Positions 601-56,198 of a stretch of 64,000 nucleotides of DNA are shown in pieces. Both the position numbers and the translations under genes were made by a program. Every line of letters begins with the position of its first letter. Within the stretch, counting starts at the first letter, position 1. Source of the DNA: Squalus acanthias (Eukaryota); contig CM059449.1 of NCBI GenBank assembly GCA_030390025.1, positions 2,294,001 through 2,358,000 on the forward strand. The letters are read 5' to 3'. The notes below the pieces were generated by a model. It saw nothing but the letters and a program-made list of their open reading frames with translations, made no database searches and had not been told where the DNA came from.

Positions 601-2985
601 TGGTGTTAATGTGACAGATTAAGGCTGAATGAAGTGTGAAATCCACTGGCAGAATGAAGGACAGCTGCCAGCTTCTAGGAGGAAAAAAAAGGTGGGGGGG
701 GACAAATAAATGGGTGTATACTTTAGTGGATACTTTAGAAAGTGCTCAATAGCCGATGCCGCGGAGCTGCGTTAGTGAAAGCTGTTCTGTTTGTTTAAAG
801 GTTTTACAGTAACAAGAACTCAGCTGTTGCTGTATCAATAGAAGGAATCCCAGGAATTTCTGTTCTTGTAAAACTCGTCTGTGTCCATAGATGGCGCTGC
901 TGCACAGTTTCTCTAAACAGAGCCACTTAACGGAGATATTGGCCCGGGTTTTGCTGTACTGATAACGGTGAGGCTGTCGGTGCTCACCGTTATTACAGGG
1001 TAAAACTGACAGCAACCTCTAGCTTCCGCACATGCGCAGTTAAACGCAGAAATCCGGAAATTGCTGTCAGTGATACCCTGCTCCTCCACAGGCTGCGCTG
1101 TTGCAGTCTTCGCCAATGGAATCTGCACAGAGATCACTGTAATGGTGTGAACTTAGGCTAATTACCCATTATTCTCACTCTAAAGACAGATGAAAAAGTT
1201 AGGGCTTATACAATCAGGAGTATCTGAGTTTTTAACAGCATAATAAGTGATAATTACAGCTGAAGAACCTCTCTGGCCCTGAAAACTTAATTTTACAGGT
1301 GTACAGTCTCATTCCCTCAAGAAAATCAATGGTGCAGATTTTTTTTAAAGTTTAAAAAAAAATAGTTTTACTGTTTTTCTCTTATGTCTCTCCCTTAAAC
1401 CCGTGTGTATGTTCCAATCTTTATTTCGTTCCTGTACAATGATTTGAATGTAATTTATATTTCCTGTTTCTTTCTTCCTGCTTTGCAGTCTGCTTGCCTC
1501 AGTGAGGATTCTTCAATCTGATTGGTTGAAGAGCCTCCCTGCTGCTTGCGCTGCTCACAGATACCATAGATCCCCAGTAGAGTGCACCGCACTGGATCAG
1601 ACACCCGTCGACAGGAAATCTCTGCTGACCAGCCCGCGAAGTGTCTCTGGGCAACTGTACATGAGGTGAACAGTGAAAGCCTTTCCTTTGCTGCTCAGCA
1701 AAATCCGGGCCAATGAGAATAAAACGGACAGAAATTCTTGGGAACAAAAGGCTAAAAAACTGTAAATCTGAAACATCTGGAAACACTCACCAGGTCAGGC
1801 AACATCTGTGGAGGGAATGGAGAAACTCCTTTGTGAAGAAACGTTCAAACCTGAAGCATCAGCTCCTCTATTCTCTCCACACAAGCTGCCTCATCTGTTT
1901 CCAGGATATTTTTTATTTGTTTGAGAGTTTGGCTTCATTCATAAATTGGACAACCCGCTCACATGATGAAGTGTGCTTTTCCTCATTGTCCTGCAGTGAA
2001 ATATGGTACAAATCTACAGAAAACACAGGGTGCTGTTCAATTCAAGATCTTGGGCTTCAGCTGGCCCGAGACAAAAATAGCTCGGTTGGATTGAACAGGT
2101 AGAAGACTTTAAATATTTCCCTCTGTCACATAGAAAATTACAAACCAGAATCCAGGTCGGCAGTGCCATTCAGCTCACTGAGCCTGCTCCACCATTTTGT
2201 TAGCAATAATATCTTTTTAAACTCCATTTCCCCTGTTTCTCCATATCTTGCCATACTCACTAGGTAAGTAACTATCTGCCTTTTAAACACCTCACCTAAT
2301 TCTGTGGTTATGTCCTTCTGGAACACTATATTCCTCATTCTAGCACCCTTTGTGTGAATTTTTCCCCATTGACTTGCTTTTAATTGTTTATTTCTATTGT
2401 AAGATTGTCCTTTATTTTAGAATCCCCAGCAGTCAGAAACTCATCCCCTGTCTACCCCGTCATTCCCTTCATTATTTTAAACACGTTGATCAGATCATCC
2501 TCTAACTGTATCTCCAGAGAACAGATCCTGAATTCACCCAGTCTCTTATGATGACTCAGACCCTTCGTCCCACAGCTCACCCTGGTCAATCACCACTGTA
2601 CTTTCTCCAAGGCCAGTGTCTCCTTCCTATTGTTCCTATAGTCATTCATTTATTACTCCGATCAGTGAGCAGCACTGATTACTTGATAGATCCCCACACA
2701 TTTCTGCAACACACTGAAATAAAACATCAGAGTCACGCTGTTATTTTAATGAAAACTTACTCGCCGCCCAGACAGGTTTGAATGAAGAGAGTTCTTCAGC
2801 CTGTTCTCTTTATCTTTCTGGAATATCAGCCCTGCCTTCTTCCTGTTGCAGCATCCAGCTGTTTCTTCCTTTCACATCAAGATATGAGAATTATTGTCAG
2901 TGATATGAAAAGGGTGTTAATAATGCAGCATGAAAACAATGGGTGACTAATCCAGGTAACTCTGATCTAATTTACAGGGTCCACA

Positions 2986-3043
2986 ATGGAGAATCGCTTA
3001 CTGGCGTCATTCCTATTGTTACAGATTCAGATTACAGCAGCAG
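2986..3043 (+). CDS. BTN-like gene 1, signal peptide exon ([19 protein letters not shown])
   Basis: Acceptor tttacag ends 2977; ATG in ACAATGG context; hydrophobic core; donor CAG|gtaag. Conserved in gene 2. Confidence 0.88.
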
Positions 3044-6000
3044 GTAAGAGACTGGATTAAAGGCATGAAGTCTGGATTATCTGTATAATGTGTGCTGTGA
3101 CAGTATTTAAATGCTATTCATTCTTCAGTTACAGGAGACTTCGAAGTGACCGGTGCAGACAGCCCAGTTCTAGGGACCGTGGGTAGTAGCGTCACGCTGA
3201 ACTGTCGGGTCACACCGAGCTTTGACCTTCTGAGTATGGAACTGGAATGGTTAAAAGCAGATACCCGAGAAACTGTAGTTTTAGTTATAAATGGACGCAA
3301 TCGTGCAAAGTCAAGCAACTACCATGGAAGGACTGAGCTCTTTATGGACAAATTGATTCAGGGAAATATCTCTGTCCATCTAAGCAATGTCCGTATCTCT
3401 GATGAGGGTAAATACAGATGCATCGTGAGCACCAGTTCCTGGGGACATGCAGGAGATGCAGAACTAACAGTAGCCGGTAGGTATTGATACAGAGAACTGA
3501 ATCTGTGAATATAATCACCAAAAATTATTCAGAAATTTACATCCCCGTGTAAAATGTCTGTTTAATTAATTTATAAACAGAGAATACCAACATTGATTCT
3601 TAACTGTTATTGCTGCTTCAGTTTGAGTACATGGAGTTAATGTTCCGTATTGTGATTGGATTGTGGAGGGAATGAAACCGTGCTCGATCCGTTCACTCTC
3701 ATTCTGAACAATCGGTCTCGGGAACACTGGGGATCTTCTACATCTCAATCTGTACAGTGCTCACTGTGGGTGTAGATTCACTGTAGAATGTGTCACTGGG
3801 ACTCTGCACGAACACTTTATCTCATGGCCTGAGATTCCCTCCTCCTGCTGTTCCCTCGATCACAAGACAATTATGGATGAGGAAGGCAGTTCGGGCCATT
3901 TTATTTTAACTAGAAAGACCCTAACTTCCCCATTGGACCTCCAATTGTTTCTTAAACCTCCATGACTCTGTCCAGAGTCCATTCCATGTGTTGATCACTC
4001 TTTGTTTGATGGTCTTGCTGTTACCAGTCTCACATTTACCTTTTACTAGTTTGAACCTGTGTTCACTTGTCCCACTCTCACAATTTAAAGTAATATTTCA
4101 GCTTTACCTTTTCCGTTCATTTAACTACCTATATCTACCTCGATAAGGTCACCTCTCAGAAGCCTCCTTTCCTGGTGCAAATCCCAGGTTTCTCCAGTCT
4201 TTTCCCGTCACTCAGACCCCTGACACTGGGGATGAGTCTGGTGGATCTTCTCCGATCTGCCTCCAGTGTTCAAATGTCTCCCTTTTTTCTCAATGGCCAG
4301 AACTGGACACAGTATTCAAGGTGGGCTCTGACCAGAGCACCGTGCAGTTTGATCGTGGCTTCCTCTGACTTGTAGTCTACTGTTTTTAGCCATTTAGTTT
4401 GGGAGGTTGGGGGAGAGAATGTTGCTCATTTTCCCTTGTGAATACTTCAAGGAAATGATAACTCGGAATATTTCCTATTTTGTGTTTGCCCCCAGTTCTG
4501 ATACTGTTTGAATCATTTATGGTTTTCACTGATTCTCTGACATTCCTGTCACTGCTGTAAGACTGAGGCTTATTTACTGTAATGTTTCACTTCAGCTGCT
4601 GTGCATTTTCCGAGACCTCTCCTGGCCCTTCTCATCACCTGCTGAACGTGTTCCTGCACATTCCTATATTCATCCCAGTGAACCCCTTCTCCTTTCTCCC
4701 AGCAGGATTTATAGCCATTTCTCCTCTTATTTCACTTCAATCTCTTTGTTAATCCATTGAGGGTCAAGTGTGTTTAGCCTGAGCTTCTGATTTCAGATCC
4801 TCACTGTGTTGGAGTCTGAGTCACCCACTGAGTCTGACTGTAACTCATTCATTCCCAGGACTGCAGAGCTGTCGAACTCCTGGCCTCCCTCAGCTTTCTC
4901 CTCCTACAATCTACGGCTTTTAAAAACTCAAGTGTGGCCTCCCCTGATCACAGCTTCATGATTTGCATCCTCTCCAGTCTGTTCTGTACCGTGGTGGAGG
5001 CCTCCTTCTGGGCCTTGGCCCTTCACACCCTTTTGGCAACAATATAAAAATGAGGCCTCCCAAAAAAAGCTTCAAATGATCTGGAGAAAGTAGAAAGAGA
5101 CAAATTCCAAACATTCACATTCTCCGTTATCTGCTGATGTCTCATGGGAGCAGTTTTCCAGCCTAAATATTGGGATTAACCAGGAAACATTGACACTTGT
5201 ACATTGAACCAGATGTGTAAATACCTTTTTAATACAGGAAAACTGGTTTTATAGAATAATAGAATCACACAGCACAGAAGGAGGCCATTCGGCCCATTGT
5301 GCCTGTGCCGGCTCTTTGAAAGTGCTATCCAATTAATCCCACTCCTCTACTCTTTCCCCCTAGCCCTGCAATCTTTTCCTTTTCAAGTATTTATCCAAAT
5401 CCATTTTGAAAGTTTCTATTGAATCTGCTTCCACCGCCCTTTCAGGCAGTGCATTCCAGAACATCATAACTCACTGTGTAAAAAAAGTTCTCCTCATTTC
5501 CCCTCTGTTATTTTGCCAATTATCTTTCTATCTGTGTCCTCTGGTAACTGACCCGCCAGCCAGTGCAAACAGTTTCTCCTGATTTACTCTAACAATACCC
5601 TTCATAATTTTGAACTCCTCAATCAAATCTCCCCATAACCATTTTTGGTCTAAGGAGAACAATCCCAGCTTCTCCAATCTCTCCAAATAACTGAAGTCCC
5701 TGATCCCTGGTGCCATTCTGGGAAATCTCCTCTGCACCCTCTCCAAGGCCTTGACATGTTTCCGAAAGTGTGATGCCCAGAATTGGCCACAATTTTCTAG
5801 CTGATGCCTAACCAGTGTTTTATAAAGGTTTAGCATAGCTTCCTTGCTTTTGTACTCTATGCCTCTAATTATAAAGCCAAGGGTCCCGTATGGTTTTTTA
5901 ACAGGCTTATCAGCTTGTCCTGCAACCCTCAAGGATTTGCGTATGTGAACCCCAGGTTTCTCTAATCCGGTACCCCCTTGAAAATTGTACCATTTTTTAA

Positions 6001-9000
6001 AAATTGCCTCTCCTCATTCATCCTTCCATAATGCATCACTTCACACATCTCTGTTTTAAATTGCACCTGCCATGTGACTGCCCATCTCACCAGTCTGTCG
6101 CTGTCCTCCTGAAGTCTTCTACTACCCTTCTCACTAGATTTCCGAGTTTTGTGTCCTCTCCAAACTTTGAAATTATGCCCTTTATACCCAAGTCCAGGTC
6201 ATTAATATAGTTCAAAAAGAGCAGTGGTCCCAACCCCGACCCCTGGGGGACATCACTGTATTCTTCCCTCCAGTCTCAAAAGCAACCGTTCACCACTACT
6301 GTCTGCTTTCCATTCCTTGGCCAATTTCATATCCATACAGCCCCTTCCCCTTTAATCCCATGAGCTTCAATTTTGCTAAGAAGTCTAACATGTGGTACTT
6401 TATCAAACGCCTTTTGAAATTCCATTTACACAGCATCAACTTCACTACCCTCATCAACCCTCTCCATCATTTCATCAAAGAACTTAATCAAGTTAGTCAG
6501 ATACGATTTGCCGGCTCTCATATTTTTCCAAGTGCCAAGTAATTGTGTCTCAAAGTTTCCCCACCACCGACGTTAGGCTGACTGGCCTGTAATTGCCAGG
6601 TTTTTCCTCTCCCCTTTTTTGAATGGGGTGAAACATCTGCAACCCTGCAGTCCTCGGGCACCTCTCCCATATCTAAGGAAGATTGGAAGATTGTGGCTAG
6701 AGCCTCCGCAATTTTCACCCTTCCCTCAGCAACTGAGGGTGCATCCCACCCGGACCGGGTGACTTTTCTACTTTGATCGCTGACAACCATTTATGAACTC
6801 TTTATTTATTTTTATCCTATCCAATATCGCTATTGCCTCCTCCTTTACTGCGACATTGGCAGCATCCTCCTCTCCAGTGAAGACAGATGCAAAGTACTCA
6901 TTTAGTAGCTCAGCCATGCCCTCTGCCTCCACAGGAAGATCTCCTTTTTGGTCCCTAATTGGCCCCACCCTTCTCTTGACTACCCTTTTTATAAAAGACT
7001 TCAGTGTTCTCTTTTCTATTATCTGCTAATCTATTCTCATACACTCTCTTTGCCCCTCTTATTTCCTTTTTCAGTTCTCCTCTGCACTTTCTGCATTCGG
7101 CTTGGTTCTCTACTGTATTAAGAACCTGACATTTATCACAAGCCTCCTGTTACTGTTTCAGTTTAACCTCAATATCTTTAGACATCCAGCAAGCTGTAGC
7201 TTTGGATGCCCTTGCGTTCGCCCTGATAAGAATGTGTCCAGTCTGTACCTGAACTAGCTCCTCCTTGAAGGCCTCCCACTGCTCATTTACTGTTTTACCT
7301 GCCATTCGTTGTCTCCAATCCACCTTGGCCAGACCCCTTTTCAGCTGACTGAAATGAACCCTCTTCCAGTTGGATATCTTCACTTTTGATTGTTCCTTGT
7401 CTCTTTCCCATTCTCAACCTAATCATATTGTTTCCATTACTGTAATTGGAACTGAATTGGTTCCAGTCACACACATCAGAATCTGAAATATAAATTTGTT
7501 AATATGCACAAATTAATGTTTCTGCCAGTGAGCATGTATTTGTAGTTTATTTTGAAAGTAAATGGATTATTACACTGAAATAAACATTATTTTCTCTGGT
7601 AAACCTTAACATTCTGTTCAGCGAAGAGCTGAGTGAATCTGTCTGGATATGGTAGCCTGGTGTTTATGTACCGTTATGCAATCCGTTCCAGAACAAAACC
7701 CTGTTAAAAGCCTCTCCTGAACCATCCTTTTCAATAATTACACACTGCATGGACCGTATTTATCCAATAGATGTCTTGGTAGAATAAAATAATATGCAGC
7801 TTATTTTCCATATTTGTAGTGTCTGGGAGTCAACCTGAGATCCATGTTGAAGGATTCCATGAGCGAGGAGGGAGTCTTGTGTGTAAATCCAGTGGATGGT
7901 ACCCGGCCCCTGAGGTATCCTGGAGATACACAGATGGACAGAACATTTCTGCACTGTCTAAAACCCTGAATACTACAGAGTCCAGTGGAGCTGTCAATGT
8001 CGAAAGTCACATCAACATCACAAAGGATCTTGGGGAAAGCTACTCCTGTCTGATAAGGAACAGATTGCTCTTCGAGGAAAGAGAAGGGATTATTGAGATA
8101 GCAGGTCAGTGACGAGCCCTCCTCAACAGAGGGTTTATGAAATATTCACATGAACACATTCATCAGGCTGATAGATTTATTGTTTGACATGTCAATGGTA
8201 TCTTAGTTCTACAACAAATAAGTTTGTTTATTTACAGATGAGTTTTTCCCTCAGGAGATGGGAGTTTCAGGATGGAGTGTGGCTTTCTGGATACTCACGG
8301 TTCTCACTGCTATTCTAATAATTGCCGCAGTTCTCTACTGGTTAGAACAATGGAACGGTGTTTTCTATACATGGAAAGAATTGAAAGGTAACATCTTACA
8401 AAAAATGTTTAAAATCTTGAATTGTGAAAACACTGAAATATACAGAAAATCATTTTTTCTTATAATTGTCCAGAATAAGAGGATCCATAGAAACATAGAA
8501 GATAGGAGCAGGAGTAGGCCATTCGGCCCCTCGAGCCTGCTCCGCCATTCAATGAGATCATGGCTGATCATCCAAACTCAGTACCCTGTCCCTGCCTTCT
8601 CCCCATATCCTTGATCCCTTTAGCCTTAAGAAATATATCTATCTCCTTCTTGAATATATTTAATGAATTGGCCTCAACTGCCTTCTGTGGTAGAGAATTC
8701 CACAGGTTCACCACTCTCTGGGTGAAGAAATTCCTCCTCATCTCTGTCCTAAATGGCTTACCCCTTATCTTTAGACTGTGACCTCTTGTTCTGGACTCAC
8801 CCGCCATCGGGAACATCCTTCCTGCATCCAGTCTGTCTAGCCCTGTTAGAATTTTATAAGTTTCAATGAGATCTCCTCTCATTCTTCTAAACTCCAGCGA
8901 GTATAAGCCCAATTGACCCAATCTCTCCTCATACGTCATTCCTGCCATCCCAGGTATCAGTCTGATGAATCTTCGCTGCACACCCTTCATGGAAAGAACA

Positions 9001-24000: not shown

Positions 24001-27000
24001 GCACATAAGATATTGGGACAGGTAACCAAAAGCTTGGTCAAAGAGGTTTTAAGGAGCGTCTTTCAGGAGGAGAGAGAGGCGGAGAGGTTTAGGGAGGGAA
24101 TTCCAGAGCTTAGAGCCCAGGCAGCTGAAGGCACGGCCGCCAATGGTGGAGTGATTAAAATCGGGGCTGCGAAGGAGGCCAGAACTGGAGGAATGTAGAG
24201 ATCTCGGAGGATTATGGAGCTGGAGGAGGATACAGAGATTGGGAGGGTTGTAGGGCTGGAGGAGATAACAGAGATAAGGCGGGTTGTAGGGCTGGAGGAG
24301 ATAACCGAGATGGGGGGGCGGGGGGAGTAGGGTGGGGCCATGGAAGGATTTGAAGACAAGGATGTGAATTTTAAAGTTGAGGTGTTGCCAGACTGGGAGC
24401 CAATGTAGTCAGCGAGCGCAGGGGTGATGGGTGAACGGGACTTGGTGCGAGTTAGGACACGGGCAGCAGAGTTTTGGATGAGCTCAAGTTTACAGAGGGT
24501 GGGAGATGGGAGGCCGGCCAGGAGTGTGTTGGAATAGTCAGGTCTGGAGGTAACAAAGGCATGGATTTAGGATTTCAGCAGCCTATGAGCTGAGGCAGGG
24601 GCGGAGAAGGGTGATGTGATCACTCGCTATATAAGGACAAGTCTTCCTTTGTCCCATCCAAACACTGTCTGCTGTCTGAATTTGATTCTTCTCTTATTAA
24701 TGAAAGTTATTCCAAGTCCCATGAAAATCACTGAGACCAGTCAGGAAACTGGAGGTTGTTTCTAATGAAAATCTATTCTCTTCCAGATCTACAGAAGCAG
24801 CTAGAAGACTCAGGTAAGAAGATTTGTGAGAAAATCTCAGCTGTGGTTCCATGGCCCCTCCGTGCAGTGTGTAATTATTGAAAGGGATGATGTCCAGTAT
24901 CAGTGTAGCTGGATTGTATTTTGTCAATAAGTATTGTAATGAATTCTGGTGATATTTATCTGCTCTGTGTGATGTCTCCGCTGAACAGCATCTGTGCTGT
25001 AAGTTTTCCCGAAGGTTTTTACACAGGGTCACACACCATGAGCTGCTCCCTCCTGATCCACAATTACTGTACGACCTCGTTCCCACAGAATGGTCTTACT
25101 GACGGAGATAAGCATCTTCTCACAGTGAGTGGATCCGGCTTCTTTAAGGTTCCTGTCTAGAAGTGGACAGTCCCGAGTGTGGTGGATCCTGTGTGATGTG
25201 CAGCTCTCAGTGAGATATGTCAGTGGTGTCCGGGTCACTGTAAATAAATGACAATCATTGTGTCGCCTGGTTCTGTGATCCATTTATGCTCAGTATTTAC
25301 ACTTTATTATGTGACGGCGCCATTGATGTTATTTTAATCTGTTTTTCAGAGCGGGAAAGGCTTTGGATGTTTGCAGGTGAGAGACTTCAGATCCTGGGGC
25401 TGTGCCGGTTTCTATCTTGTGAAGTTCAGGTTCTGGTTTGTGCGGAGTGTTTAACATTCGTGGGGGAGCCCTGTCAATAACTAAAACATCAGCATTTGCA
25501 TAAGTCCTGTCTGAAACACCGTCTGTCTATAAATACTGCAGTGAGTGAGAGGGGACTGTGCCACAGGGGCAGGGTGGTAACTGATTCCGGACAGAGCTGT
25601 TGTCTATTTCTCCCTGTAACAGCACATGCCACTGAGATTAATATAAAGATTCATCTTTTTCTCAATTCTAAAGGCACAGCCTGAGGTCACACAATCCAGC
25701 TGGGGGTCGGGCCCAGCAGATTCAGTGAGATTCCTGCTCCCAGATCCCTGCTCCAGGCCTGGGCTGTTGGGCTTGAAGCTCCCTGTAGGGAGTTGGATGG
25801 ACAGAGCCCCTCTCAGTGCCTGATAGTCAGAGTCCCAGGCTGCAGGTTCAGCTCACTCCTGCTCACACTGCAGTCACAGTGTAGGTATTGAGCTTTGACA
25901 CTGTGATACTGTCTGAAATATGATGGGGGAGGAAGTGACTGATAAACATTCAGAGTCACACAGCACCTGTAGGAAACAGGGAAAACAGCCGGATGTCTAT
26001 ATGATGGAGATGTTTAAAATCATCTCAGCCTGTCCCTGGTGTGTGTGTATTTTACTTGTCCCTTTCCTACAATTATTGACTCTCAATCTGTTTGGAAGGG
26101 TGAGGGTCTGCTCCTGCTCGCGGGGTGGGGTTCAGGGTCAAAGTGGCTGAATGGGCCGATCCCCAGACAGGAGAGAGACCGAGAGAAATGGTGTAAAAGT
26201 GATTATTTGACTGGGTCCGGTCTGTGTGTGACCTACAGGTACACTGAGCCGGTCCTTACCGGGATTGCACCGGGTGTGAATGTAGAGTTGGGTCTGTGTG
26301 TGACCTGCAGGTACACTGAGCCGGTCCGTACCCGGATTGCACCGGGAGTGAATGTGGAGTTGGGTCTGTGTGTGACCTGCAGGTACACTGAGCCGGTCCG
26401 TACTGGGATTGCACCGGGTGTGAATGTGGAGTTGGGTCTGTGTGTGACCTGCAGGTACACTGAGCCGGTCCGTACCGGGATTGGACCGGGAGTGAATGTG
26501 GAGTTGGGTCTGTGTGATCTGCAGGTACACTGAGCCGGTCCGTACCGGGATTACACCAGGTGTGAATGTGGGTCTGCGAGCTGGGATCAGGCCGCTCCGG
26601 GTTTTTGCTCCTGATCGGTGATGGTTCGAGCTCCAGGTGCCGGACTCAGTTTTATAATTTTATTGCAGAGCCTGTGACTCTGGATCTGAACACAGCGAAT
26701 CCCCTGCTCATCATGTCTGAGGACCAGACCAGTGTGAGACTCGGAGAGGAACCTCAGGAGCTCCCTGACAACCCGAAGAGGTTTGATCCCTGGCCATATG
26801 TCCTGGGATCGGAGGGATTCACATCAGGGAGACACTACTGGGAGGTGGAGGTGGGGGACAAGACTGAGTGGTTTGTGGGAGTGACCCGTGAGTCTGCCGA
26901 GAGGAAAGGGTTTTTCGACCGGAAACCAGAGACCGGATACTGGATTGTGAGGCTGTCCCCCGGAAGTGTCTATTTTGCCTTCACCTCCCCCTCACCGACC

Positions 27001-27213
27001 CGCCTCACCCAGAGTGTGAAGCCCCGGAAGATCGGGGTGTACCTGGACTATGAGGGCGGACAGGTGTCATTTTACAATGCGGACAACATGTCCGAACTCT
27101 ACACTTTCACCCACACTTTCACTGAGAGAATCTTTCCCATCTTCTATCCGGGATCGAATGATGGCGGGAAAAACTCCGCCCCGCTGACAATCTGTGAGGT
27201 TAAAGGTCACTAA
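2986..27213 (+). CDS. Butyrophilin-like gene 1, complete 7-exon model join(2986-3043,3129-3476,7820-8104,8238-8387,24787-24813,25350-25376,26669-27213), 479 aa: SP-IgV-IgC-TM-coiled coil-B30.2
   Basis: All introns are GT-AG and phase 1. Exon lengths 58+348+285+150+27+27+545 = 1440 nt, open to TAA. The domain order is the canonical butyrophilin architecture. Confidence 0.88.
3129..3476 (+). CDS. BTN-like gene 1, IgV exon
   Basis: VTLNC...LEW...YHGRTELF...[20 protein letters not shown] is a B7/BTN V-set signature. In-frame tandem acceptors at 3129 and 3135; donor CCG|gtaggt. Confidence 0.95.
5251..7400 (-). mobile_element. Degenerate CR1 LINE in gene 1 intron 2
   Basis: Broken ORF2 fragments (5528-5932, 6768-6968, 7150-7383) and a CR1 3' tail. 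Confidence 0.85.
7820..8104 (+). CDS. BTN-like gene 1, IgC exon
   Basis: [10 protein letters not shown]...[16 protein letters not shown]...YSCLIRN is the BTN/B7 C-type domain; tttgtag acceptor, CAG|gtcagt donor. Confidence 0.95.
8238..8387 (+). CDS. BTN-like gene 1, transmembrane exon
   Basis: [50 protein letters not shown]; tttacag acceptor, AAG|gtaac donor; same 150-nt length in gene 2. Confidence 0.92.
8489..9232 (-). mobile_element. 5'-truncated CR1 LINE, gene 1-specific
   Basis: [13 protein letters not shown]...WNSLP ORF and (ttctatg) tail; absent at the paralogous site near 56292. Confidence 0.9.
9800..12245 (-). mobile_element. CR1 LINE with a nested younger CR1 at about 10594-11194
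   Basis: CR1 ORF2 fragments; the host sequence resumes after the nested copy. Confidence 0.88.
12905..14835 (-). mobile_element. CR1 LINE with a nested + strand CR1 (about 14072-14740)
   Basis: [12 protein letters not shown] motif on the minus strand; [12 protein letters not shown] and 3' tail on the plus strand. Confidence 0.85.
14850..18350 (+). mobile_element. Non-LTR retrotransposon (CR1/L2-related family) with a nested gene 1-specific CR1 at about 16411-17862
   Basis: RT peptides [22 protein letters not shown] and PQGSVLGP. The nested CR1 is flanked by ttgc and is absent near 59400. Confidence 0.85.
18800..19010 (+). mobile_element. PIF/Harbinger transposase (HARBI1-like) remnant
   Basis: [40 protein letters not shown] matches the C-terminal DDE region of Harbinger nucleases; frameshifted. 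Paralogous copy at about 60360-60560. Confidence 0.75.
19700..20545. mobile_element. CR1 fragments in both orientations, with a gene 1-specific SINE at about 20187-20400
   Basis: [10 protein letters not shown] fragment. The SINE is flanked by an aaagaa duplication and is absent near 61720. Confidence 0.7.
20740..21600 (+). mobile_element. CR1 LINE fragments
   Basis: A CR1 3' end and ORF 20972-21352 ([13 protein letters not shown]). Confidence 0.8.
21600..23315 (-). mobile_element. Non-LTR retrotransposon, APE endonuclease plus start of RT (same family as 14850-18350)
   Basis: [29 protein letters not shown] and KAMGPDNIP motifs. Confidence 0.85.
23900..24620 (-). mobile_element. L2-type LINE 3' portion containing about 2-3 copies of the 36-bp motif
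   Basis: (ttg)n tail on the minus strand and L2-like 3' region; [10 protein letters not shown] repeats in ORF 24063-24359. Confidence 0.65.
24787..24813 (+). CDS. BTN-like gene 1, coiled-coil micro-exon (DLQKQLEDS)
   Basis: 27 nt, phase 1-1, ctcttccag acceptor, CAG|gtaag donor, heptad-like peptide. BTN genes typically carry 21-27-nt heptad exons here. Confidence 0.8.
25350..25376 (+). CDS. BTN-like gene 1, micro-exon before B30.2 (ERERLWMFA)
   Basis: 27 nt, phase 1-1, gtttttcag acceptor, CAG|gtgag donor. Confidence 0.8.
26218..26575 (+). repeat. 72-bp minisatellite, about 5 copies, in the last intron of gene 1
   Basis: Unit gggtctgtgtgtgacctgcaggtacactgagccggtccgtaccgggattgcaccgggtgtgaatgtggagtt. 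Confidence 0.95.
26669..27213 (+). CDS. BTN-like gene 1, terminal B30.2 (PRY/SPRY) exon
   Basis: [11 protein letters not shown]...PDNPKRFD...[14 protein letters not shown]...[16 protein letters not shown] motifs; ttttattgcag acceptor; TAA at 27211-27213. Confidence 0.95.
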
Positions 27214-27494: not shown

Positions 27495-27982
27495 CAGTCC
27501 CGATCCGGAGTGAAGTGTCTGTAACTCAGTCCCGATCCGGAGTAACGTGTCTGTATATCAGTCCTGATCCGGAGTGAAGTGTCTGTAACTCAGTCCCGAT
27601 CCGGAGTGAAGTGTCTGTAACTCGGTCCCGATCCAGAGTGAAGTGTCTGTAACTCAGTCCCGATCCGGAGTGAAGAGTCTGTAACTCAGTCCCGATCCGG
27701 AGTGAAGTGTCTGTAACTCAGTCCTGATCCGGAGTGAAGTGTCTGTAACTCAGTCCCGATCCGGAGTGAAGTGTCTGTAACTCAGTCCCGATCCGGAGTG
27801 AAGTGTCTGTAACTCAGTCCTGATCCGGAGTGAAGTGTCTGTAACTCAGTCCCGATCCGGAGTGAAGTGTCTGTAACTCGGTCCCGATCCGGAGTGAAGT
27901 GTCTGTAACTCGGTCCCGATCCGGAGTGAAGTGTCTGTAACTCAGTCCTGATCCGGAGGGAAGAGTCTGTAACTCAGTCCTG
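27495..27982 (+). repeat. 32-bp minisatellite, 15 copies plus a partial, downstream of gene 1
   Basis: Unit cagtcccgatccggagtgaagtgtctgtaact with exact 32-bp periodicity from 27495 to 27975. Confidence 0.97.
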
Positions 27983-36912: not shown

Positions 36913-37412
36913 NNNNNNNNNNNNNNNNNNNNNNNNNNNNNNNNNNNNNNNNNNNNNNNNNNNNNNNNNNNNNNNNNNNNNNNNNNNNNNNNNNNNNNNN
37001 NNNNNNNNNNNNNNNNNNNNNNNNNNNNNNNNNNNNNNNNNNNNNNNNNNNNNNNNNNNNNNNNNNNNNNNNNNNNNNNNNNNNNNNNNNNNNNNNNNNN
37101 NNNNNNNNNNNNNNNNNNNNNNNNNNNNNNNNNNNNNNNNNNNNNNNNNNNNNNNNNNNNNNNNNNNNNNNNNNNNNNNNNNNNNNNNNNNNNNNNNNNN
37201 NNNNNNNNNNNNNNNNNNNNNNNNNNNNNNNNNNNNNNNNNNNNNNNNNNNNNNNNNNNNNNNNNNNNNNNNNNNNNNNNNNNNNNNNNNNNNNNNNNNN
37301 NNNNNNNNNNNNNNNNNNNNNNNNNNNNNNNNNNNNNNNNNNNNNNNNNNNNNNNNNNNNNNNNNNNNNNNNNNNNNNNNNNNNNNNNNNNNNNNNNNNN
37401 NNNNNNNNNNNN
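36913..37412. other. Assembly gap (500 N) with poly-C-rich flanks
   Basis: Run of N. Confidence 1.
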
Positions 37413-40969: not shown

Positions 40970-43645
40970 GGTTACAGAGACAGAGCTGGAGGAGGTTACA
41001 GAGATGGGGAGGGTTGTAGGGCTGGAGGAGGATAAAGAGATAGGGAGGGTTGTAGGGCTGGAGGAGGTTACAGAGACAGGGAAGGTTGTAGGGCTGGAGG
41101 AGGATACAGAGATGGGGAGGGTTGTTGGGCTGGAGGAGGATACAGAGATGGGGAGGGTTGTAGGGCTGGAGGAGGTTACAGAGATAGGGAGGATTGTAGG
41201 GCTGGAGGAGGTTACAGAGACGGAGAGTGTAGGGCTGGAGGAGGTTACAGAGACGGAGGGTTGTAGAGCTGGAGGAGGTCCGAGATAGGGAGGGGTGTAG
41301 GGCTGGAGGAGGTTACAGAGACAGGGAGGGTTGTAGGGCTGGAGGACGTTACAGAGCTAGGGAAGGTTGTAGGGCAGGAGGATGTTAGCGAGATAGGGAG
41401 TGTTGTAGGGCTGGGGGAGTGTTGTAGGGCTGCAGGAGGTTATCGAGACGGAGGGTTTTAGGGATGGAGGAGGTTATCGAGACGGACTGTTTTAGGGATG
41501 AGGAGGTTACTGAGATGGAGGGTTGTAGGGCTGGAGGAAGATACAGAGATAGGGAGGGTTGTTGAGCTGGAGGAGGTTACAGAAATAGGGAGGGTTGTTG
41601 GGCTGGAGGAGGTTACAGAAATAGGGAGGGTTGTTGGGCTGGAGGAGGTTACAGAGATTGGGAGGGTTGTAGGGCTGGAGGAGGATACAGAGATAGGGAG
41701 GGTTGTAGGGCTGGAGGAGGTTACAGAGACGGGGAGGGTTGTAGGGCTGGAGGAGGTTACAGAGTTGGGGAGGGTTGTAGGGCTGGAGTAGGTTACAGAG
41801 ACAGGGAGAGTTGTAGGGCTGGAGGATGTTAGCGAGATAGGGAGTGTTGTACGGCTGGGGGAGTGTTGTTGGGCTGGAGGAGGTTACAGAGAGGGAGGGT
41901 TGTAGGGCTGGAGGAAGTTAGAGAGATAGGGAGGATTGTAGGGCTGGAGGTGGTTACAGAGTTGGGGAGGGTTGTAGGGCTGGAGTAGGTTACAGAGATG
42001 GAGGGTTGCAGGGCTGGAGGGGGTTACAGAGAAAGGGAGGGTTGCAGGGCTGGAGGAGCTTTCAGAGATAGGGAGGGTTGTGGGGTTGGAGGAGCTTACA
42101 GAGATAGGGAGGGTTGTGGGGCTGGATGAGGTTACAGAGATGGGGAGGCTTCTAGGGCTGGAGGAGGTTACAGAGACACGGAGGGTTCTTGGGCTGGAGG
42201 ATGTTAGAGAGGGTGGGTTGTAGGTCTACAGGAGTTCAGATATAGGGAGGGTTGTAGGGCTGGAGGAGGTTACAAAGATAGGGAGGATTGTAGGGCTGGA
42301 GGAGCTTACAGACATAGGGATAATTGTAGGGCTGAAGGAGGTTACAGGAATAGGGACTGTTGTAGGGCTGGAGGAGGTTACAGAGATGGGGAGGGTTGTA
42401 GGGCTGGAGGAGGTTGCAGAGATAGGGAGGGTTGTAGGGCTGGAGGAGGTTACAGTTAGGGAGGGTGTTAGGGCTGGAGGAGGTTACAGAGACGGAGGGT
42501 TGTAGAGGCTGGAGGAGGTTACAGAGATAGTGTGGGCTGCAGGGCTGGAGGAGGTTACAGAGACAGGGAGGGTTGTAGGGCGGTTAGAGGTGGAGGGTTG
42601 TTGGGCTGGAGGAGTTTAGAGACAGGGAGGGTTGTAGGGCTGGAGGAGGTTGGAGATAGGGAGGGTTGTAGGGCTGGAGGAGGTTAGAGGGACAGGGAGG
42701 GTTGTAGGGCTGGAGGAGGTTACAGAGACAGGGTGGGTTGTAAGTTTGGAGGAGGTTAGAGATAGGGAGGGTTGTAGGGCTGGAGGAGGTTAGAGGGACA
42801 GGGAGGGTTGTAGAGGCTGGAGGAGGTTACAGAGATAGGGAGTGTTGTAGGGCTGGAGGAGATTACAGAGATAGCGAGAGTTGTAGGGCTGCAGACGGTT
42901 AAAGAGAAAGTGAGGGTGTTAGGGATGGAGGAGGTTACAGAGATAGGGAGTGTTGTCGGACTGGAGGAGGTTACAGAGATCGGTAGGGTTGGCGGGCTGG
43001 AGGAGGTTACAGAGATCGTGTGGGTTGTAGGGCTGGAGGAGGTTACAGAGATAAGGAGGGTTGGAGAGGCTGGAGGAGGTTACAGAGAGTGTGGGTTGTA
43101 GGGCTGGAGGAGGTTACAGAGATAGGGAGGGTTGTAGAGGCTGGAGGAGGTTACAGAGATAGTGTAGGTTGTAGGGCTGTTAGAGGTGGAGGGTTGTAGG
43201 GCTGGAGGAGGTTACAGAGATAGGAAGGCTTCCAGGGCTGGAGGAGGTTACAGGGACAGGGAGAGTTGTCGGGCTGGAGGAGGTTAGAGATAGGGAGGGT
43301 TGTAGAGGCTGGAGGAGGTTACAGAGATAGGGAGGCTGCTAGGGCTGGAGGAGGTTACAGAGATGGGGAATGTTGTAGGGCTGGAGGAGGATAGAGATAG
43401 GGAGGGTTGTAGGGCTGGAGGAGATTAACGAGACAGGGAGGGTTGTAGGAGGTTACAGAGATAGGGAGGGGTGGAGGTTTCAGAGATAGGCAGGCTGCTA
43501 GGGCTGGAGGAGGTTACAGAGATAGGGAGGGTTGTGGAGGCTGGAGGAGGTTACAGGGATAGGGATGGTTGTGGAGGCTGGAGGAGGTTACAGAGACAGG
43601 GAGGCTTCCAGGGATGGAGGAGGTTATAGAGATGGAGGATTGTCG
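40970..43645 (+). repeat. About 2.7-kb G-rich minisatellite with a unit of about 36 bp
   Basis: Unit gggagggttgtagggctggaggaggttacagagata with variants. Confidence 0.97.
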
Positions 43646-43647
43646 GG

Positions 43648-44207
43648 CTGCAATGAAGGCCAACATACCATTTGCCTTCCTAACTGCTTGCTGCACCTGC
43701 ATGTTTGCTTTCAGTGACTGGTGTACAAGGACTCCCAGGTCCCTTTGTACATCAACATTTCCCAATCTATCACCATTTAAATAATACTCTTCCTTTCTGT
43801 TTTTCCTACCAAATTGGATAACTTCACATTTATCCACGTTATACTGCACCTGCCATGTATTTGCCCACTCACTCAACTTGTCTAAATCGCCTTGAAGCCT
43901 GTTTGCATCCTCCTCACAACTCACAATCCCACCTAGTTTCGTGTCGTCAGGAAACTTGGAAATATTACATTTGGTTCCCTTGTCCAAATCGTTGATATAT
44001 ATTGTGAATAGCTGGGGCCCAAGCACTGATCCCTGCGGTACCCCACTAGTCACCACCTGCCACCTCAAAAAAGACCCATTTATTCCTACTCTCTGTTTCT
44101 TGTCTGTTAACCAATTTTCAATCCGTGCCAGTTCATTACCCCCAATCCCATGTGCTTTAATTTTGCACACTAACCTCTTATGTGGGACTTTATCAAAGGC
44201 CTTCTGA
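43648..44207 (-). mobile_element. CR1 internal RT fragment
   Basis: [18 protein letters not shown]. Confidence 0.88.
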
Positions 44208-45313: not shown

Positions 45314-45371
45314 ATGGAGAATCGCCTACTGGCGTCATTCCTATTGTTACAGATACAGATTACAGCAGCAG
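45314..45371 (+). CDS. BTN-like gene 2, signal peptide exon
   Basis: Same peptide as gene 1 ([19 protein letters not shown]); donor CAG|gtaag. Confidence 0.88.
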
Positions 45372-45456: not shown

Positions 45457-45804
45457 TTACAGGAGACTTCGAAGTGACCGGTGCAGACAGCCCAGTACTA
45501 GTGACCGTGGGTAGTAGCATCACGCTGAACTGTCAGGTCACAAAGAGCTTTGACCCTCTGAGTATGGAACTGGAATGGTTAAAAGCAGATACCCTTGAAA
45601 CTGTAGTTTTAATTAAAAATGGAATCAATCGTGCAAAGTCAATCAACTATCATGGAAGGACTGAGCTCTTTACGGACAAATTTGATCAGGGAAATATCTC
45701 TCTCCGTCTAAGCAATGTCCGTATCTCCGATGAGGGTATCTACAGATGCCTCGTGAGCTCCAGTTCTTGGGGACAGGCAGGAGATGCAGAACTAACAGTA
45801 GCCA
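45457..45804 (+). CDS. BTN-like gene 2, IgV exon
   Basis: Open paralogue of 3129-3476 with both Cys and the Trp intact; donor CCA|gtaggt. Confidence 0.93.
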
Positions 45805-50949: not shown

Positions 50950-51735
50950 TTATAGAATAATAGAATCACACAGCACAGAAGGAGGCCATTCGGCCCATTG
51001 TGCCTGTGCCTACTCTCTGAAAGTGCTATCCAATTAATCCCACTCCCCTGCTCTTTCCCCATAGCTCTGCAATCTTTTCCTTTTCAAGTATTTATCCAAA
51101 TCCATTTTGAAAGTTTCTACTGAATCTGCTTCCACCGTCCTTTCAGGCAGTGCATTCCAGAACATCATAACTCACTGTGTAAAAAAAAAAAAAAATTCTC
51201 CTAATGTTTCCCTCTGTTATTTTGCCAATTACCTTTCTATCTGTGTCCTCTGGTTGCTGACCCACCAGCCAGTGCAAACAGTTTCTCCTGACTTACTCTA
51301 ACAATACCCTTCATAATTTTGAACTCCTTGATCAAATCTCCCCATAACCTTTTTTGGTCTAAGGAGAACAATCCCAGCTTCTCCAGTCTCTCCAAATAAC
51401 TGAAGTCCTGATCCCTGGTGCCATTCTAGGAAATCTCCTCTGCACCCTCTCCAAGGCCTTGACATGTTTCCTAAAGTGTGATGCCCAAATTGGCCACAAT
51501 TTTCCAGCTGATGCCTAACCAGTGTTTTATAAAGGTTTAGCATGGCTTCCTTGCTTTTGTACTCTATCCCTCTAATTATAAAGCCAAGAGTCCCGTATGG
51601 TTTTTTAACAGGCTTATCAGCTTGTCCTGCAACCCTCAAGGATTTGCGTATGTGAACCCCAGGTTTCTCTAATCTGGTACCCCCTTGAAAATTGTACCAT
51701 TTTTAAAAAATTGCCTCTCCTCATTCATCCTTCCA
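50950..51735 (-). mobile_element. CR1 3' part, paralogous to 5251-6028
   Basis: Colinear with the CR1 in gene 1 intron 2. Confidence 0.85.
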
Positions 51736-51981
51736 GTCACACACATCAGAATCTGAAATATAAAAGTTTGTTAATACGCACAGATTAATGTTTCTGCCAG
51801 TGAGCATGAATTTGTAGTTTATTGTGAAAGTAAATGGATTATTCCACTGAAATAAACATTATTTTCTCTGGTAAACCGTAACATTCTGTTCAACGAAGAG
51901 AGGAGTGAATCTGTCTGGATATGGTAGCCTGGTGTTTATGTGCTGGTCTGGTAACCAGAGGTTGATAGTTCAAATCCCCCG

Positions 51982-53426: not shown

Positions 53427-55015
53427 TTTTTATAAAGGTTTAGCATAGCTTCCTTGCTTTTGTACTCTATGCCTCTAATTATAAAGCCAAGGGTCCCGTA
53501 TGGTTTTTTAACAGGCTTATCAGCTTGTCCTGCAACCCTCAAGGATTTGCGTATGTGAACCCCAGGTTTCTCTAATCCGGTACCCCCTTGAAAATTGTAC
53601 CATTTTTTAAAAATTGCCTCTCCTCATTCATCCTTCCATAATGCATCACTTCACACTTCTCTGTTTTAAATTGCACCTGCCATGTGACTGCCCATCTCAC
53701 CAGTCTGTCGCTGTCCTCCTGAAGTCTTCTACTATCCTTCTCACTAGATTTCCGAGTTTTGTGTCCTCTCCAAACTTTGAAATTATGCCCTTTATACCCA
53801 AGTCCAGGTCATTAATATAGTTCAAAAAGAGCAGTGGTCCCAACCCCGACCCCTGGGGGACACCACTGTATTCTTCCCTCCAGTCTCAAAAGCAACCGTT
53901 CACCACTACTGTCTGCTTTCCATTCCTTGGCCAATTTCATATCCATACAGCCCCTTCCCCTTTAATCCCATGAGCTTCAATTTTGCTAAGAAGTCTAACA
54001 TGTGGTACTTTATCAAACGCCTTTTGAAATTCCATTTACACAGCATCAACTTCACTACCCTCATCAACCCTCTCCATCATTTCATCAAAGAACTTAATCA
54101 AGTTAGTCAGATACGATTTGCCGGCTCTCCTTTATTAACCCATATTTTTCCAAGTGCCAAGTAATTGTGTCTCAAAGTTTCCCCACCACCGACGTTAGGC
54201 TGACTGGCCTGTAATTGCCAGGTTTTTCCTCTCCCCTTTTTTGAATGGGGTGAAACATCTGCAACCCTGCAGTCCTCGGGCACCTCTCCCATATCTAAGG
54301 AGGATTGGAAGATTGTGGCTAGAGCCTCCGCAATTTTCACCCTTCCCTCAGCAACTGAGGGTGCATCCCACCCGGACCGGGTGACTTTTCTACTTTGATC
54401 GCTGACAACCATTTATGAACTCTTTATTTATTTTTATCCTATCCAATATCGCTATTGCCTCCTCCTTTACATTGGCAGCATCCTCCTCTCCAATGAAGAC
54501 AGATGCAAAGTACTCATTTAGTAGCTCAGCCATGCCCTCTGCCTCCACAGGAAGATCTCCTTTTTGGTCCCTAATTGGCCCCACCCTTCTCTTGACTACC
54601 CTTTTTATAAAAGACTTCAGTGTTCTCTTTTCTATTATCTGCTAATCTATTCTCATACACTCTCTTTGCCCCTCTTATTTCCTTTTTCAGTTCTCCTCTG
54701 CACTTTCTGTATTCGGCTTGGTTCTCTACTGTATTAAGAACCTGACATTTATCACAAGCCTCCTGTTACTGTTTCAGTTTAACCTCAATATCTTTAGACA
54801 TCCAGCAAGCTGTAGCTTTGGATGCCCTTGCGTTCGCCCTGATAGGAATGTGTCCAGTCTGTACCTGAACTAGCTCCTCCTTGAAGGCCTCCCACTGCTC
54901 ATTTACTGTTTTACCTGCCATTCGTTGTCTCCAATCCACCTTGGCCAGACCCCTTTTCAGCTGACTGAAATGAACCCTCTTCCAGTTGGGTATCTTCACT
55001 TTTGATTGTTCCTTG
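53427..55015 (-). mobile_element. CR1 segment nearly identical to 5817-7400
   Basis: Direct comparison with gene 1 intron 2. Confidence 0.88.
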
Positions 55016-55615
55016 TCTCTTTCCCATTCTCAACCTAATCATATTGTTTCCATTACTGTAATTGGAACTGAATTGGTTCCAGTCACACACATCAGAATCT
55101 GAAATATAAAAGTTTGTTAATACGCACAGATTAATGTTTCTGCCAGTGAGCATGAATTTGTAGTTTATTGTGAAAGTAAATGGATTATTCCACTGAAATA
55201 AACATTATTTTCTCTGGTAAACCGTAACATTCTGTTCAACGAAGAGAGGAGTGAATCTGTCTGGATATGGTAGCCTGGTGTTTATGTGCTGGTCTGGTAA
55301 CCAGAGGTTGATAGTTCAAATCCCCCGCCCCCCTCTACATGACAGTTATTGAAACTGAATTCAATAAATCTATTAGTTTGTGGGTCAGGACCAGCACAAA
55401 CGTCCCACTGCAATTATCCCAATTTAGATCCAGTACCACATCTGTACCAACTGATGGCAGAGGTCAAGAACAGCGATCCGTTCTGGAACAAAACCCTGTT
55501 AAAAATCCTCTGCTGAACCATCCCTTTCAATAATTACACACTGCATGGACAATATTTATCCAACAGATGTATTAGTAGAATAAAAAATTATGCAGGTTAT
55601 TTTCCATATTTGTAG

Positions 55616-55900
55616 TGTCTGGGAGTCAACCTGAGATCCATGTTGAAGGATTCCATGAGCGAGGGGGGAGTCTTGTGTGTAAATCCAGTGGATGGTACCC
55701 GGCCCCTGAGGTATCCTGGAGATACACAGATGGACCGGACATTTCTGCACCGTCTAAAATCCTGAATACTACAGAGTCCAGCGGAGCTGTCAATATCGAA
55801 AGTCACATGAACATCACAAAGGATCTTGGGGAAAGCTACTCCTGTCTGATAAGGAACAGATTGCTCTTCGAGGAAAGAGAAGGGATTATTGAGATAGCAG
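55616..55900 (+). CDS. BTN-like gene 2, IgC exon
   Basis: Open 285-nt paralogue of 7820-8104 with intact splice sites. Confidence 0.93.
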
Positions 55901-56048: not shown

Positions 56049-56198
56049 ATGAGTTTTTCCCTCAGGAGATGGGAGTTTCAGGATGGAGTGTGGCTTTCTG
56101 GATATTCACGCTTCTCAATGCTATTCTAATAATTGCAGCTCTTCTCTACTGGTTTGAACGATGGAATGGTGTTTTCTATACATGGAAAGAATTGAAAG
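56049..56198 (+). CDS. BTN-like gene 2, transmembrane exon (gene 3'-incomplete in this window)
   Basis: [50 protein letters not shown]; intact splice sites. Confidence 0.9.

What the first reader, a model, noticed from the sequence alone, without database searches (positions are those of the whole stretch)
45457..45804. Excess amino-acid change in IgV between the two paralogues
Hand alignment of 110 IgV codons (3146-3475 vs 45474-45803) gives 19 codons with an amino-acid change and only 4 purely synonymous ones. Five changed codons carry two substitutions (P>K, R>L, R>I, I>D, K>I) and several alter charge. The signal peptide is identical and IgC differs at about 6 of 95 residues. This suggests diversifying selection on the ligand-binding domain. 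The counts are small, so significance is not established.
Basis: partly seen in the sequence, partly recalled or inferred. Interest (0 to 1): 0.7.

Follow-up and report, generated by a model that had tools for sequence, protein, structure and literature searches.

The report
Fast-evolving IgV in shark butyrophilin duplicates
Two neighbouring shark butyrophilin-like immune genes differ at 19 of 115 residues in their outer Ig domain, mostly on predicted surface loops; this likely reflects modest selection for different binding partners, but the pair alone does not prove it and such patterns are common in immune gene families.

Summary
The counts are exact: 19 amino-acid-changing and 4 silent codons, five double-hit, identical signal peptide, IgC 6/95. 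The genes are tandem shark butyrophilin-like paralogues (IgV-IgC-TM-B30.2); gene A is an intact 479-aa ORF. The 19:4 ratio itself shows nothing: neutrality predicts 19.3:6.5 for 28 differences (P=0.19), and omega is 1.0-1.6, not significant. Against the paralogous intron clock (5.0%) there is a signal: silent changes match it (5.5 vs 4.8), replacements run 1.85x faster (P=0.05-0.11 with intron overdispersion), 2.3x on variable/surface codons (P=0.017) and about 3-4x near membrane-distal loops, while IgC runs at 0.59x. Both copies carry derived changes (7 and 10). Two of three counterparts of human gamma-delta-TCR contact residues differ (P=0.07). Public contigs show spliced transcripts and at least four IgV forms in one RNA-like run. 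Verdict: probable but unproven diversifying selection (about 55%); the main rival is relaxed constraint plus segmental exchange as in chicken BG genes. An ordinary immune-family pattern; modest interest.

The parts
2986..3043 (+). Gene A signal-peptide exon (coding part)
   Evidence: tblastn to P0004/P0005; GT donor; joint 3043>3129 in RNA-like run X6
3129..3476 (+). Gene A IgV exon
   Evidence: Pfam V-set; AG/GT; model pLDDT 90.9, TM 0.88-0.91 to MOG/BTN3A; an X6 contig matches 3270-3461 with 0 differences
7820..8104 (+). Gene A IgC exon
   Evidence: Pfam C2-set_3, BTN3A2-like IgC; X6 loose end after 3476 continues into this exon's first bases
8238..8387 (+). Gene A transmembrane exon
24787..24813 (+). 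Gene A 27-nt linker (heptad-type) exon, predicted
   Evidence: best-scoring AG..GT micro-exon against the P0004/P0005 linkers; keeps frame; no read support
25350..25376 (+). Gene A second 27-nt linker exon, predicted
   Evidence: no read support
26669..27213 (+). Gene A B30.2 (PRY-SPRY) exon with stop codon
   Evidence: Pfam PRY and SPRY
45314..45371 (+). Gene B signal-peptide exon (coding part)
45457..45804 (+). Gene B IgV exon (the finding); 29 of 348 nt differ from gene A
55616..55900 (+). Gene B IgC exon
56049..56198 (+). Gene B transmembrane exon; its linker and B30.2 exons were not found before the window end
5818..7460 (.). Intron-2 tract nearly identical between A and B (8 differences in about 1625 aligned sites; partner 53428-55076): likely recent sequence exchange
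36913..37412 (.). 500-N assembly gap between the two genes

Best explanation
These are two intact-looking tandem paralogues of a shark butyrophilin-like gene (IgV-IgC-TM-B30.2) whose IgV surface has likely been under modest diversifying selection since duplication, so that the copies would present different binding surfaces to a partner (by analogy with mammalian BTNs, a gamma-delta TCR V region or a partner BTN; a pathogen ligand is also possible). Shown: gene structure, counts, silent changes at the intron rate, replacements at 1.85x the intron rate and concentrated on variable/surface codons, changes on both lineages, spliced transcripts of the family in an RNA-like run. Inferred: selection as the cause, surface exposure (from family hydrophobicity and DSSP, not computed accessibility), and the partner. 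Occasional exchange between copies keeps parts of the introns alike while the IgV stays different (inferred from one near-identical tract).
For:: IgV nonsynonymous 22.5 observed vs 12.2 expected at the intron spectrum (Poisson P=0.007, overdispersed P=0.05), synonymous 5.5 vs 4.8; 69 variable/surface codons (classed from 60 relatives, leaving out A, B and the two closest) 17.5 vs 7.5 (overdispersed P=0.017); IgC 6 vs 10.1; distal loops 2.9-3.8x under five boundary definitions (overdispersed P 0.001-0.016 by substitutions, 0.007-0.08 by changed codons); proximal loops 0.68x; transversions 18 vs 11.2 expected given 28 differences (P=0.008), 0 of 4922 sliding noncoding windows reach 18 (max 15); double-hit codons 5 vs 2.1 (P=0.03); invariant Cys, Trp, Arg, Gly, Asp untouched; the five changes at core-type positions are G/V, V/I, V/I, L/F, V/L; 7 A-derived, 10 B-derived, 2 ambiguous (P=0.63), so not one decaying copy; 5 of 5 listed IgV variants absent from the A/B pair are replacements, with third states at codons 52 and 106; six listed DNA pieces inside IgV differ from A at 95/897 sites vs 52/1317 for six noncoding pieces; four X6 contigs overlapping 3270-3354 differ from A by 0/192, 9/118, 17/140 and 39/283; positions 46 and 98, counterparts of BTN3A1/BTNL3 TCR-contact residues, both differ.
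Against: No within-exon dN/dS test is significant (omega 1.0 with free kappa). Intron divergence is overdispersed (variance/mean 2.8; 2 of 17 windows >=29 differences), so the whole-domain excess by changed codons has P=0.09-0.11. Core codons are not visibly constrained in rate (1.07x) and the TM exon also runs at 1.19x, which fits general relaxation. Loop definitions were chosen after seeing the data and many tests were run; strict DSSP loops give in-vs-out P=0.20. An older donor is not excluded (expected silent 8.9, P(<=5)=0.12, P(<=6)=0.22). The changed sites are not significantly those that differ between the two outgroups (8/19 vs 32/96, P=0.31). IgV is the more divergent Ig domain in only 14 of 24 non-overlapping relative pairs. 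Read tables showed 40 of 222 variant rows and 32 of 3671 pieces, assembly collapses simple variants, and one listed upstream piece is 15% divergent, so some IgV forms may be just older paralogues. TCR-contact overlap, 2 of 3, has P=0.07.
Confidence: 0.55

Rival explanations
1. Relaxed constraint after duplication: IgV (and TM) evolve near neutrally and the exon happens to lie in a locally fast or older segment.
For: 19:4 equals the neutral ratio; ML omega 1.0 with free kappa; core 1.07x and TM 1.19x the intron rate; noncoding windows reach 29-30 differences per 348 sites.
Against: Silent changes sit on the intron clock while replacements do not; the excess is in transversions and on surface codons; IgC 0.59x and signal peptide 0 changes; no stop or frameshift in the exons seen; both lineages affected.
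Confidence: 0.22
2. Segmental exchange (gene conversion or micro-recombination) brought IgV cassettes from older paralogues, as described for chicken BG genes, raising divergence without selection; intron homogenisation lowers the reference rate.
For: Recent exchange between these copies is visible in intron 2 (5818-7460, 0.5% divergent; duplicated pieces in B); more divergent IgV forms exist in the family; BG precedent (PMC5043582 abstract and passages); silent count does not exclude a 1.85x older donor.
Against: Differences are spread from 3169 to 3476 with no obvious cassette; an older donor should add transitions and silent changes, but IgV transitions (11/348) equal the intron rate (226/7523). 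The converted tract was left out of the background.
Confidence: 0.18
3. A and B are two divergent alleles (haplotypes) of one locus placed in tandem by the assembly; the IgV excess would then be balancing selection or chance.
For: A 500-N gap lies between the genes; same orientation.
Against: No collinear flank upstream of 2613/44316; 5% intron divergence with different repeat insertions; at least four IgV forms in one RNA-like run need more than one diploid locus.
Confidence: 0.05

Closest known systems
Chondrichthyan 'butyrophilin subfamily 1 member A1-like' proteins (Heterodontus francisci XP_067865250.1, P0004; Pristiophorus japonicus, P0005)
   Same: Same architecture and subfamily: IgV 70% and 67-68%, IgC 82% and 81% identical to gene A; in that pair too IgV (65%) is less conserved than IgC (78%).
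   Different: Names are automatic annotations; no function or selection study was found in my searches.
Chicken BG genes (butyrophilin family)
   Same: Head-to-tail multigene family; IgV variation mostly in membrane-distal loops; exchange between copies (PMC5938342 abstract and passages; PMC5043582 abstract and passages).
   Different: For BG IgV those papers report no dN/dS evidence of selection (for example 7 silent: 12 replacement) and cassette swapping; BG dimers use a CDR1 cysteine, absent here; the shark genes have IgC and B30.2 (that BG lacks them is recalled).
Human BTN3A1/A2/A3, BTN2A1 and BTNL3
   Same: Same fold (TM 0.88-0.89) and architecture; their IgV CFG face is used in gamma-delta TCR recognition (PMC7083227, PMC6868513 passages).
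   Different: About 30% IgV identity, orthology not shown; hominoid BTN3A IgVs are homogenised by concerted evolution (PMC6790196 passages), the opposite of the divergence here.

Membership tests
Butyrophilin / butyrophilin-like family | Extracellular IgV domain of MOG/BTN type | tested here: met
   Pfam V-set; PDB hits CD276, MOG, BTN1A1, BTN3A; fold TM 0.88-0.91
Butyrophilin / butyrophilin-like family | BTN-type IgC domain | tested here: met
   PF22705 above cut-off in both genes
Butyrophilin / butyrophilin-like family | Single TM segment, short heptad-type exons, cytosolic B30.2 (PRY-SPRY) | tested here: met
   Gene A: TM exon, two predicted 27-nt exons, PRY+SPRY, 479-aa ORF. Gene B: only TM seen within the window.
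Butyrophilin / butyrophilin-like family | Orthology to mammalian BTN1A1, BTN2 or BTN3; MHC linkage | not tested
   No tree built; no genome held
gamma-delta TCR-binding BTNs (BTN2A1, BTNL3) | Direct binding of the IgV CFG face to a TCR gamma V region | not testable with these tools
Domain under positive (diversifying) selection | dN significantly above dS within the domain | tested here: not met
   P=0.29-0.93 in four tests; about 5 silent changes give little power
Domain under positive (diversifying) selection | Replacement rate above a neutral reference (paralogous introns) | tested here: inconclusive
   1.85x; P=0.007-0.04 Poisson, 0.05-0.11 overdispersed; surface subset P=0.017
Domain under positive (diversifying) selection | Site-model evidence (M7/M8) across many sequences | not testable with these tools
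   Only two full IgV coding sequences were available; relatives came as proteins, reads as partial tables

The most novel reading that the evidence does not exclude
Sharks carry a multi-copy butyrophilin family whose IgV is hypervariable under selection at the very positions that human BTN3A/BTNL3 use for gamma-delta TCR recognition, so different copies select different shark TCR V families (or race a pathogen ligand): BTN-TCR pairing would be as old as jawed vertebrates and, unlike the homogenised human BTN3 IgV, driven to diversify.
Probability: 0.15. Interest if true: 0.65.

Novelty: new member of a known kind. Interest (0 to 1): 0.3.

Why it matters
Fast-evolving ligand-facing Ig domains in duplicated immune genes are expected, so the pattern alone is not surprising. 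It matters modestly because my searches found no study of butyrophilin evolution in cartilaginous fish (open-licence library only, listings and abstracts), and these fish are the oldest lineage with gamma-delta T cells (recalled). A pair that is 95% identical in introns but differs at two TCR-contact counterparts is a ready-made reagent pair for asking whether shark BTNs are TCR ligands.

Tried and rejected
Whole-genome search: no genome is held, so other paralogues could not be pulled out. Within-exon dN/dS by four methods: not significant. The naive Fisher test against introns (P=0.007) was rejected as too liberal because introns are overdispersed. Pseudogene or one-sided decay: rejected (no stops, AG/GT sites intact, 7 vs 10 derived changes). 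CFG-face specificity: not supported (2.55x vs 2.09x on other surface; the CFG set was drawn up from recalled Ig topology). Recurrence at sites that differ between the outgroups: not significant. A family-wide rule that IgV is fastest: not supported, 14 of 24 pairs, with some IgC values distorted by gene-model errors. Mapping to seven BTN2A1 mutagenesis sites (3 of 7 differ, P=0.09) rests on recalled numbering and is not counted as evidence. Homologue searches gave only two close relatives; the 149 other representatives listed were not used. No model coordinates were available, so accessibility was not computed. No listed run is on record as RNA; X6 is guessed RNA and behaves like it (exon-only cover in the non-repeat part, a GT-AG joint). 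The TM-exon codon counts were out of frame and were replaced. Two shark-genome preprints (passages only) mention butyrophilins only for rockfish; their supplements are closed. Earlier scan findings: three look-ups, nothing returned. No complex prediction was run, since no candidate partner was in hand.

Full report
What the locus is. The window holds two same-strand copies of a butyrophilin-like gene. The closest named relatives are shark proteins annotated BTN1A1-like (Heterodontus P0004, Pristiophorus P0005). tblastn with them, splice-site checks and Pfam give gene A as signal peptide 2986-3043, IgV 3129-3476, IgC 7820-8104, TM 8238-8387, two predicted 27-nt linker exons (24787-24813, 25350-25376) and a B30.2 exon 26669-27213, together a 479-aa ORF without internal stops. 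Gene B has the first four exons intact (45314-45371, 45457-45804, 55616-55900, 56049-56198); its later exons were not found before the window ends. The IgV model (pLDDT 90.9) matches MOG and BTN3A (TM 0.88-0.91). A 500-N gap lies between the genes; no whole genome is held.

Observation. In addition the IgV/IgC junction codon differs (Val/Met) and the TM exon differs at 6 of 49 residues.

The ratio is not evidence. About three in four random changes are replacements. Simulation with the substitution spectrum of the paralogous introns gives 19.3 replacement and 6.5 silent codons for 28 differences; P(silent<=4)=0.19. Nei-Gojobori omega is 1.27 (P=0.49), 1.58 with kappa 3 (P=0.29); pairwise GY94 gives 1.0 with free kappa and 1.63 with kappa 3 (LRT P=0.93, 0.31).

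The intron clock gives a borderline signal. Collinear noncoding DNA differs at 377 of 7523 sites (5.0%; one near-identical tract left out, which raises the background), IgV at 29 of 348 (8.3%), IgC at 8 of 285, TM at 9 of 150. The naive P of 0.007 is too small: 17 non-overlapping noncoding windows have variance/mean 2.8 and two reach 29-30 differences; negative-binomial P=0.08. Split by kind, silent changes follow the intron rate (5.5 vs 4.8) and replacements exceed it (22.5 vs 12.2, 1.85x; overdispersed P=0.05 by substitutions, 0.09-0.11 by codons). The excess is all transversions (18/348 vs 151/7523; transitions 11/348 vs 226/7523), and 0 of 4922 sliding noncoding windows reach 18 transversions. 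Double-hit codons are 5 vs 2.1 (P=0.03), though noncoding differences cluster too (96 of 377 within 2 nt vs 11 of 29).

Where the changes are. Classing codons by 60 relatives (A, B and the two closest left out), 69 variable/surface codons carry 17.5 replacements vs 7.5 expected (P=0.017) and 46 core-type codons 5 vs 4.7, all small hydrophobic swaps or G/V. Invariant residues are untouched. Membrane-distal loops (BC, C'C'', DE, FG) run at 2.9-3.8x under five definitions and proximal loops at 0.68x, but the definitions are partly post hoc and the strict DSSP set gives in-vs-out P=0.20. The CFG side is not special (2.55x vs 2.09x). By the P0004-BTN3A alignment and the column table, the Arg of BTN3A1 'SSLRQ' (BTNL3 H61) is position 46, the Tyr of 'YF' (W115) is 98 and the Lys of 'YEKAL' (E124) is 107; these are named as TCR-contact or function-critical positions in PMC6868513 (passages). 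Positions 46 (R/L) and 98 (I/L) differ between A and B, 107 does not, 106 does; P=0.07 for 2 of 3. With the two outgroups, 7 changes are A-derived, 10 B-derived, 2 ambiguous, so neither copy is simply decaying.

Public reads. Four of 24 listed runs were laid on 2613-4140. X6 (guessed RNA) covers only exons in the non-repeat part, shows the GT-AG joint 3043>3129 that the three other runs lack, and continues from 3476 into the IgC exon. One X6 contig equals gene A over 3270-3461, so the A sequence there is not an assembly error; three more overlapping contigs differ by 9/118, 17/140 and 39/283, which needs more than one diploid locus. In the other three runs (three coded organisms) introns mostly appear as single deep contigs while the IgV core breaks into many forms; the six listed pieces inside IgV differ from A at 95/897 sites, the six listed noncoding pieces at 52/1317 (hand sums from table 8, values). 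Of 13 listed IgV variant positions 12 are replacements; the 5 not present in the A/B pair are all replacements. Limits: 40 of 222 variant rows and 32 of 3671 pieces were shown, assemblers collapse simple variants, depth is not copy number, one noncoding piece is 15% divergent (older paralogues exist), and B-type letters at 3169, 3174 and 3228 are fixed in all four runs.

Against. Besides the non-significant dN/dS: core and TM codons run at about the neutral rate (1.07x, 1.19x), which fits general relaxation; intron 2 shows recent exchange between the copies (5818-7460, 0.5% divergent, with duplicated pieces in B), so divergence time is patchy; a 1.85x older IgV donor is not excluded by silent sites (P=0.12-0.22); changed sites are not enriched among those that differ between the outgroups (P=0.31); among relatives IgV is the more divergent Ig domain in only 14 of 24 non-overlapping pairs; and many tests were run.

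Mechanism. Most likely (0.55) the duplicated receptors are both functional and selection has favoured different IgV surfaces while IgC and signal peptide stay constrained; the partner is inferred from mammalian BTNs (gamma-delta TCR V region or partner BTN via the CFG face; PMC7083227 and PMC6868513 passages), and a pathogen ligand is as compatible with the data. Rivals: relaxation plus rate noise (0.22), BG-like segmental exchange (0.18), alleles placed in tandem (0.05).

Known context. Chicken BG IgV variation lies mostly in distal loops without dN/dS support and with cassette exchange (PMC5938342 abstract and passages; PMC5043582 abstract and passages); hominoid BTN3A IgVs are homogenised (PMC6790196 passages citing Afrache 2017, which I did not read). 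Five searches (listings and abstracts, open-licence library only) showed no study of selection on shark butyrophilins; subscription papers and closed supplements could hold one. Verdict: a real observation, a weak original argument, a probable but unproven selection signal, and a new member of a familiar pattern. Interest 0.3.

Noticed in passing
window 5818-7460 vs 53428-55076; 51525-51981 vs 53428-53638 and 55077-55327: A 1.6-kb intron-2 tract is 99.5% identical between the paralogues against 95% around it, and gene B carries duplicated pieces of it (251 bp 100% identical): likely recent gene conversion or unequal crossover.
   Followed up: partly
window 8238-8387 vs 56049-56198: The TM exon differs at 6 of 49 residues, including Thr>Asn inside the hydrophobic stretch of gene B; rate 1.19x the intron rate.
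   Followed up: partly
window 3476 vs 45804: The last IgV exon base differs (G vs A), changing the junction codon Val>Met and the -1 position of the splice donor in gene B.
   Followed up: no
window 7942-7950 vs 55738-55746: Gene A has an extra IgC N-glycosylation sequon (N42) that is Asp in gene B.
   Followed up: no
window 36913-37412: A 500-N scaffold gap separates the two genes.
   Followed up: partly
window 40985-43650, 27495-27980, 26219-26571: Minisatellites: 36-bp x76 just upstream of gene B, 32-bp x15 after the gene A stop, 72-bp x5 before the B30.2 exon.
   Followed up: no
window 26669-27213: B30.2 domains of shark TRIM (A33/TRIM39-like) proteins are 69-75% identical to that of the close relative P0004, about as close as gene A's own (70%): possible B30.2 exon sharing between shark BTN and TRIM genes.
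   Followed up: no
window 3129 and 3135: Two in-frame AG acceptors 6 nt apart at the IgV exon start; the listed X6 joint uses 3129.
   Followed up: partly
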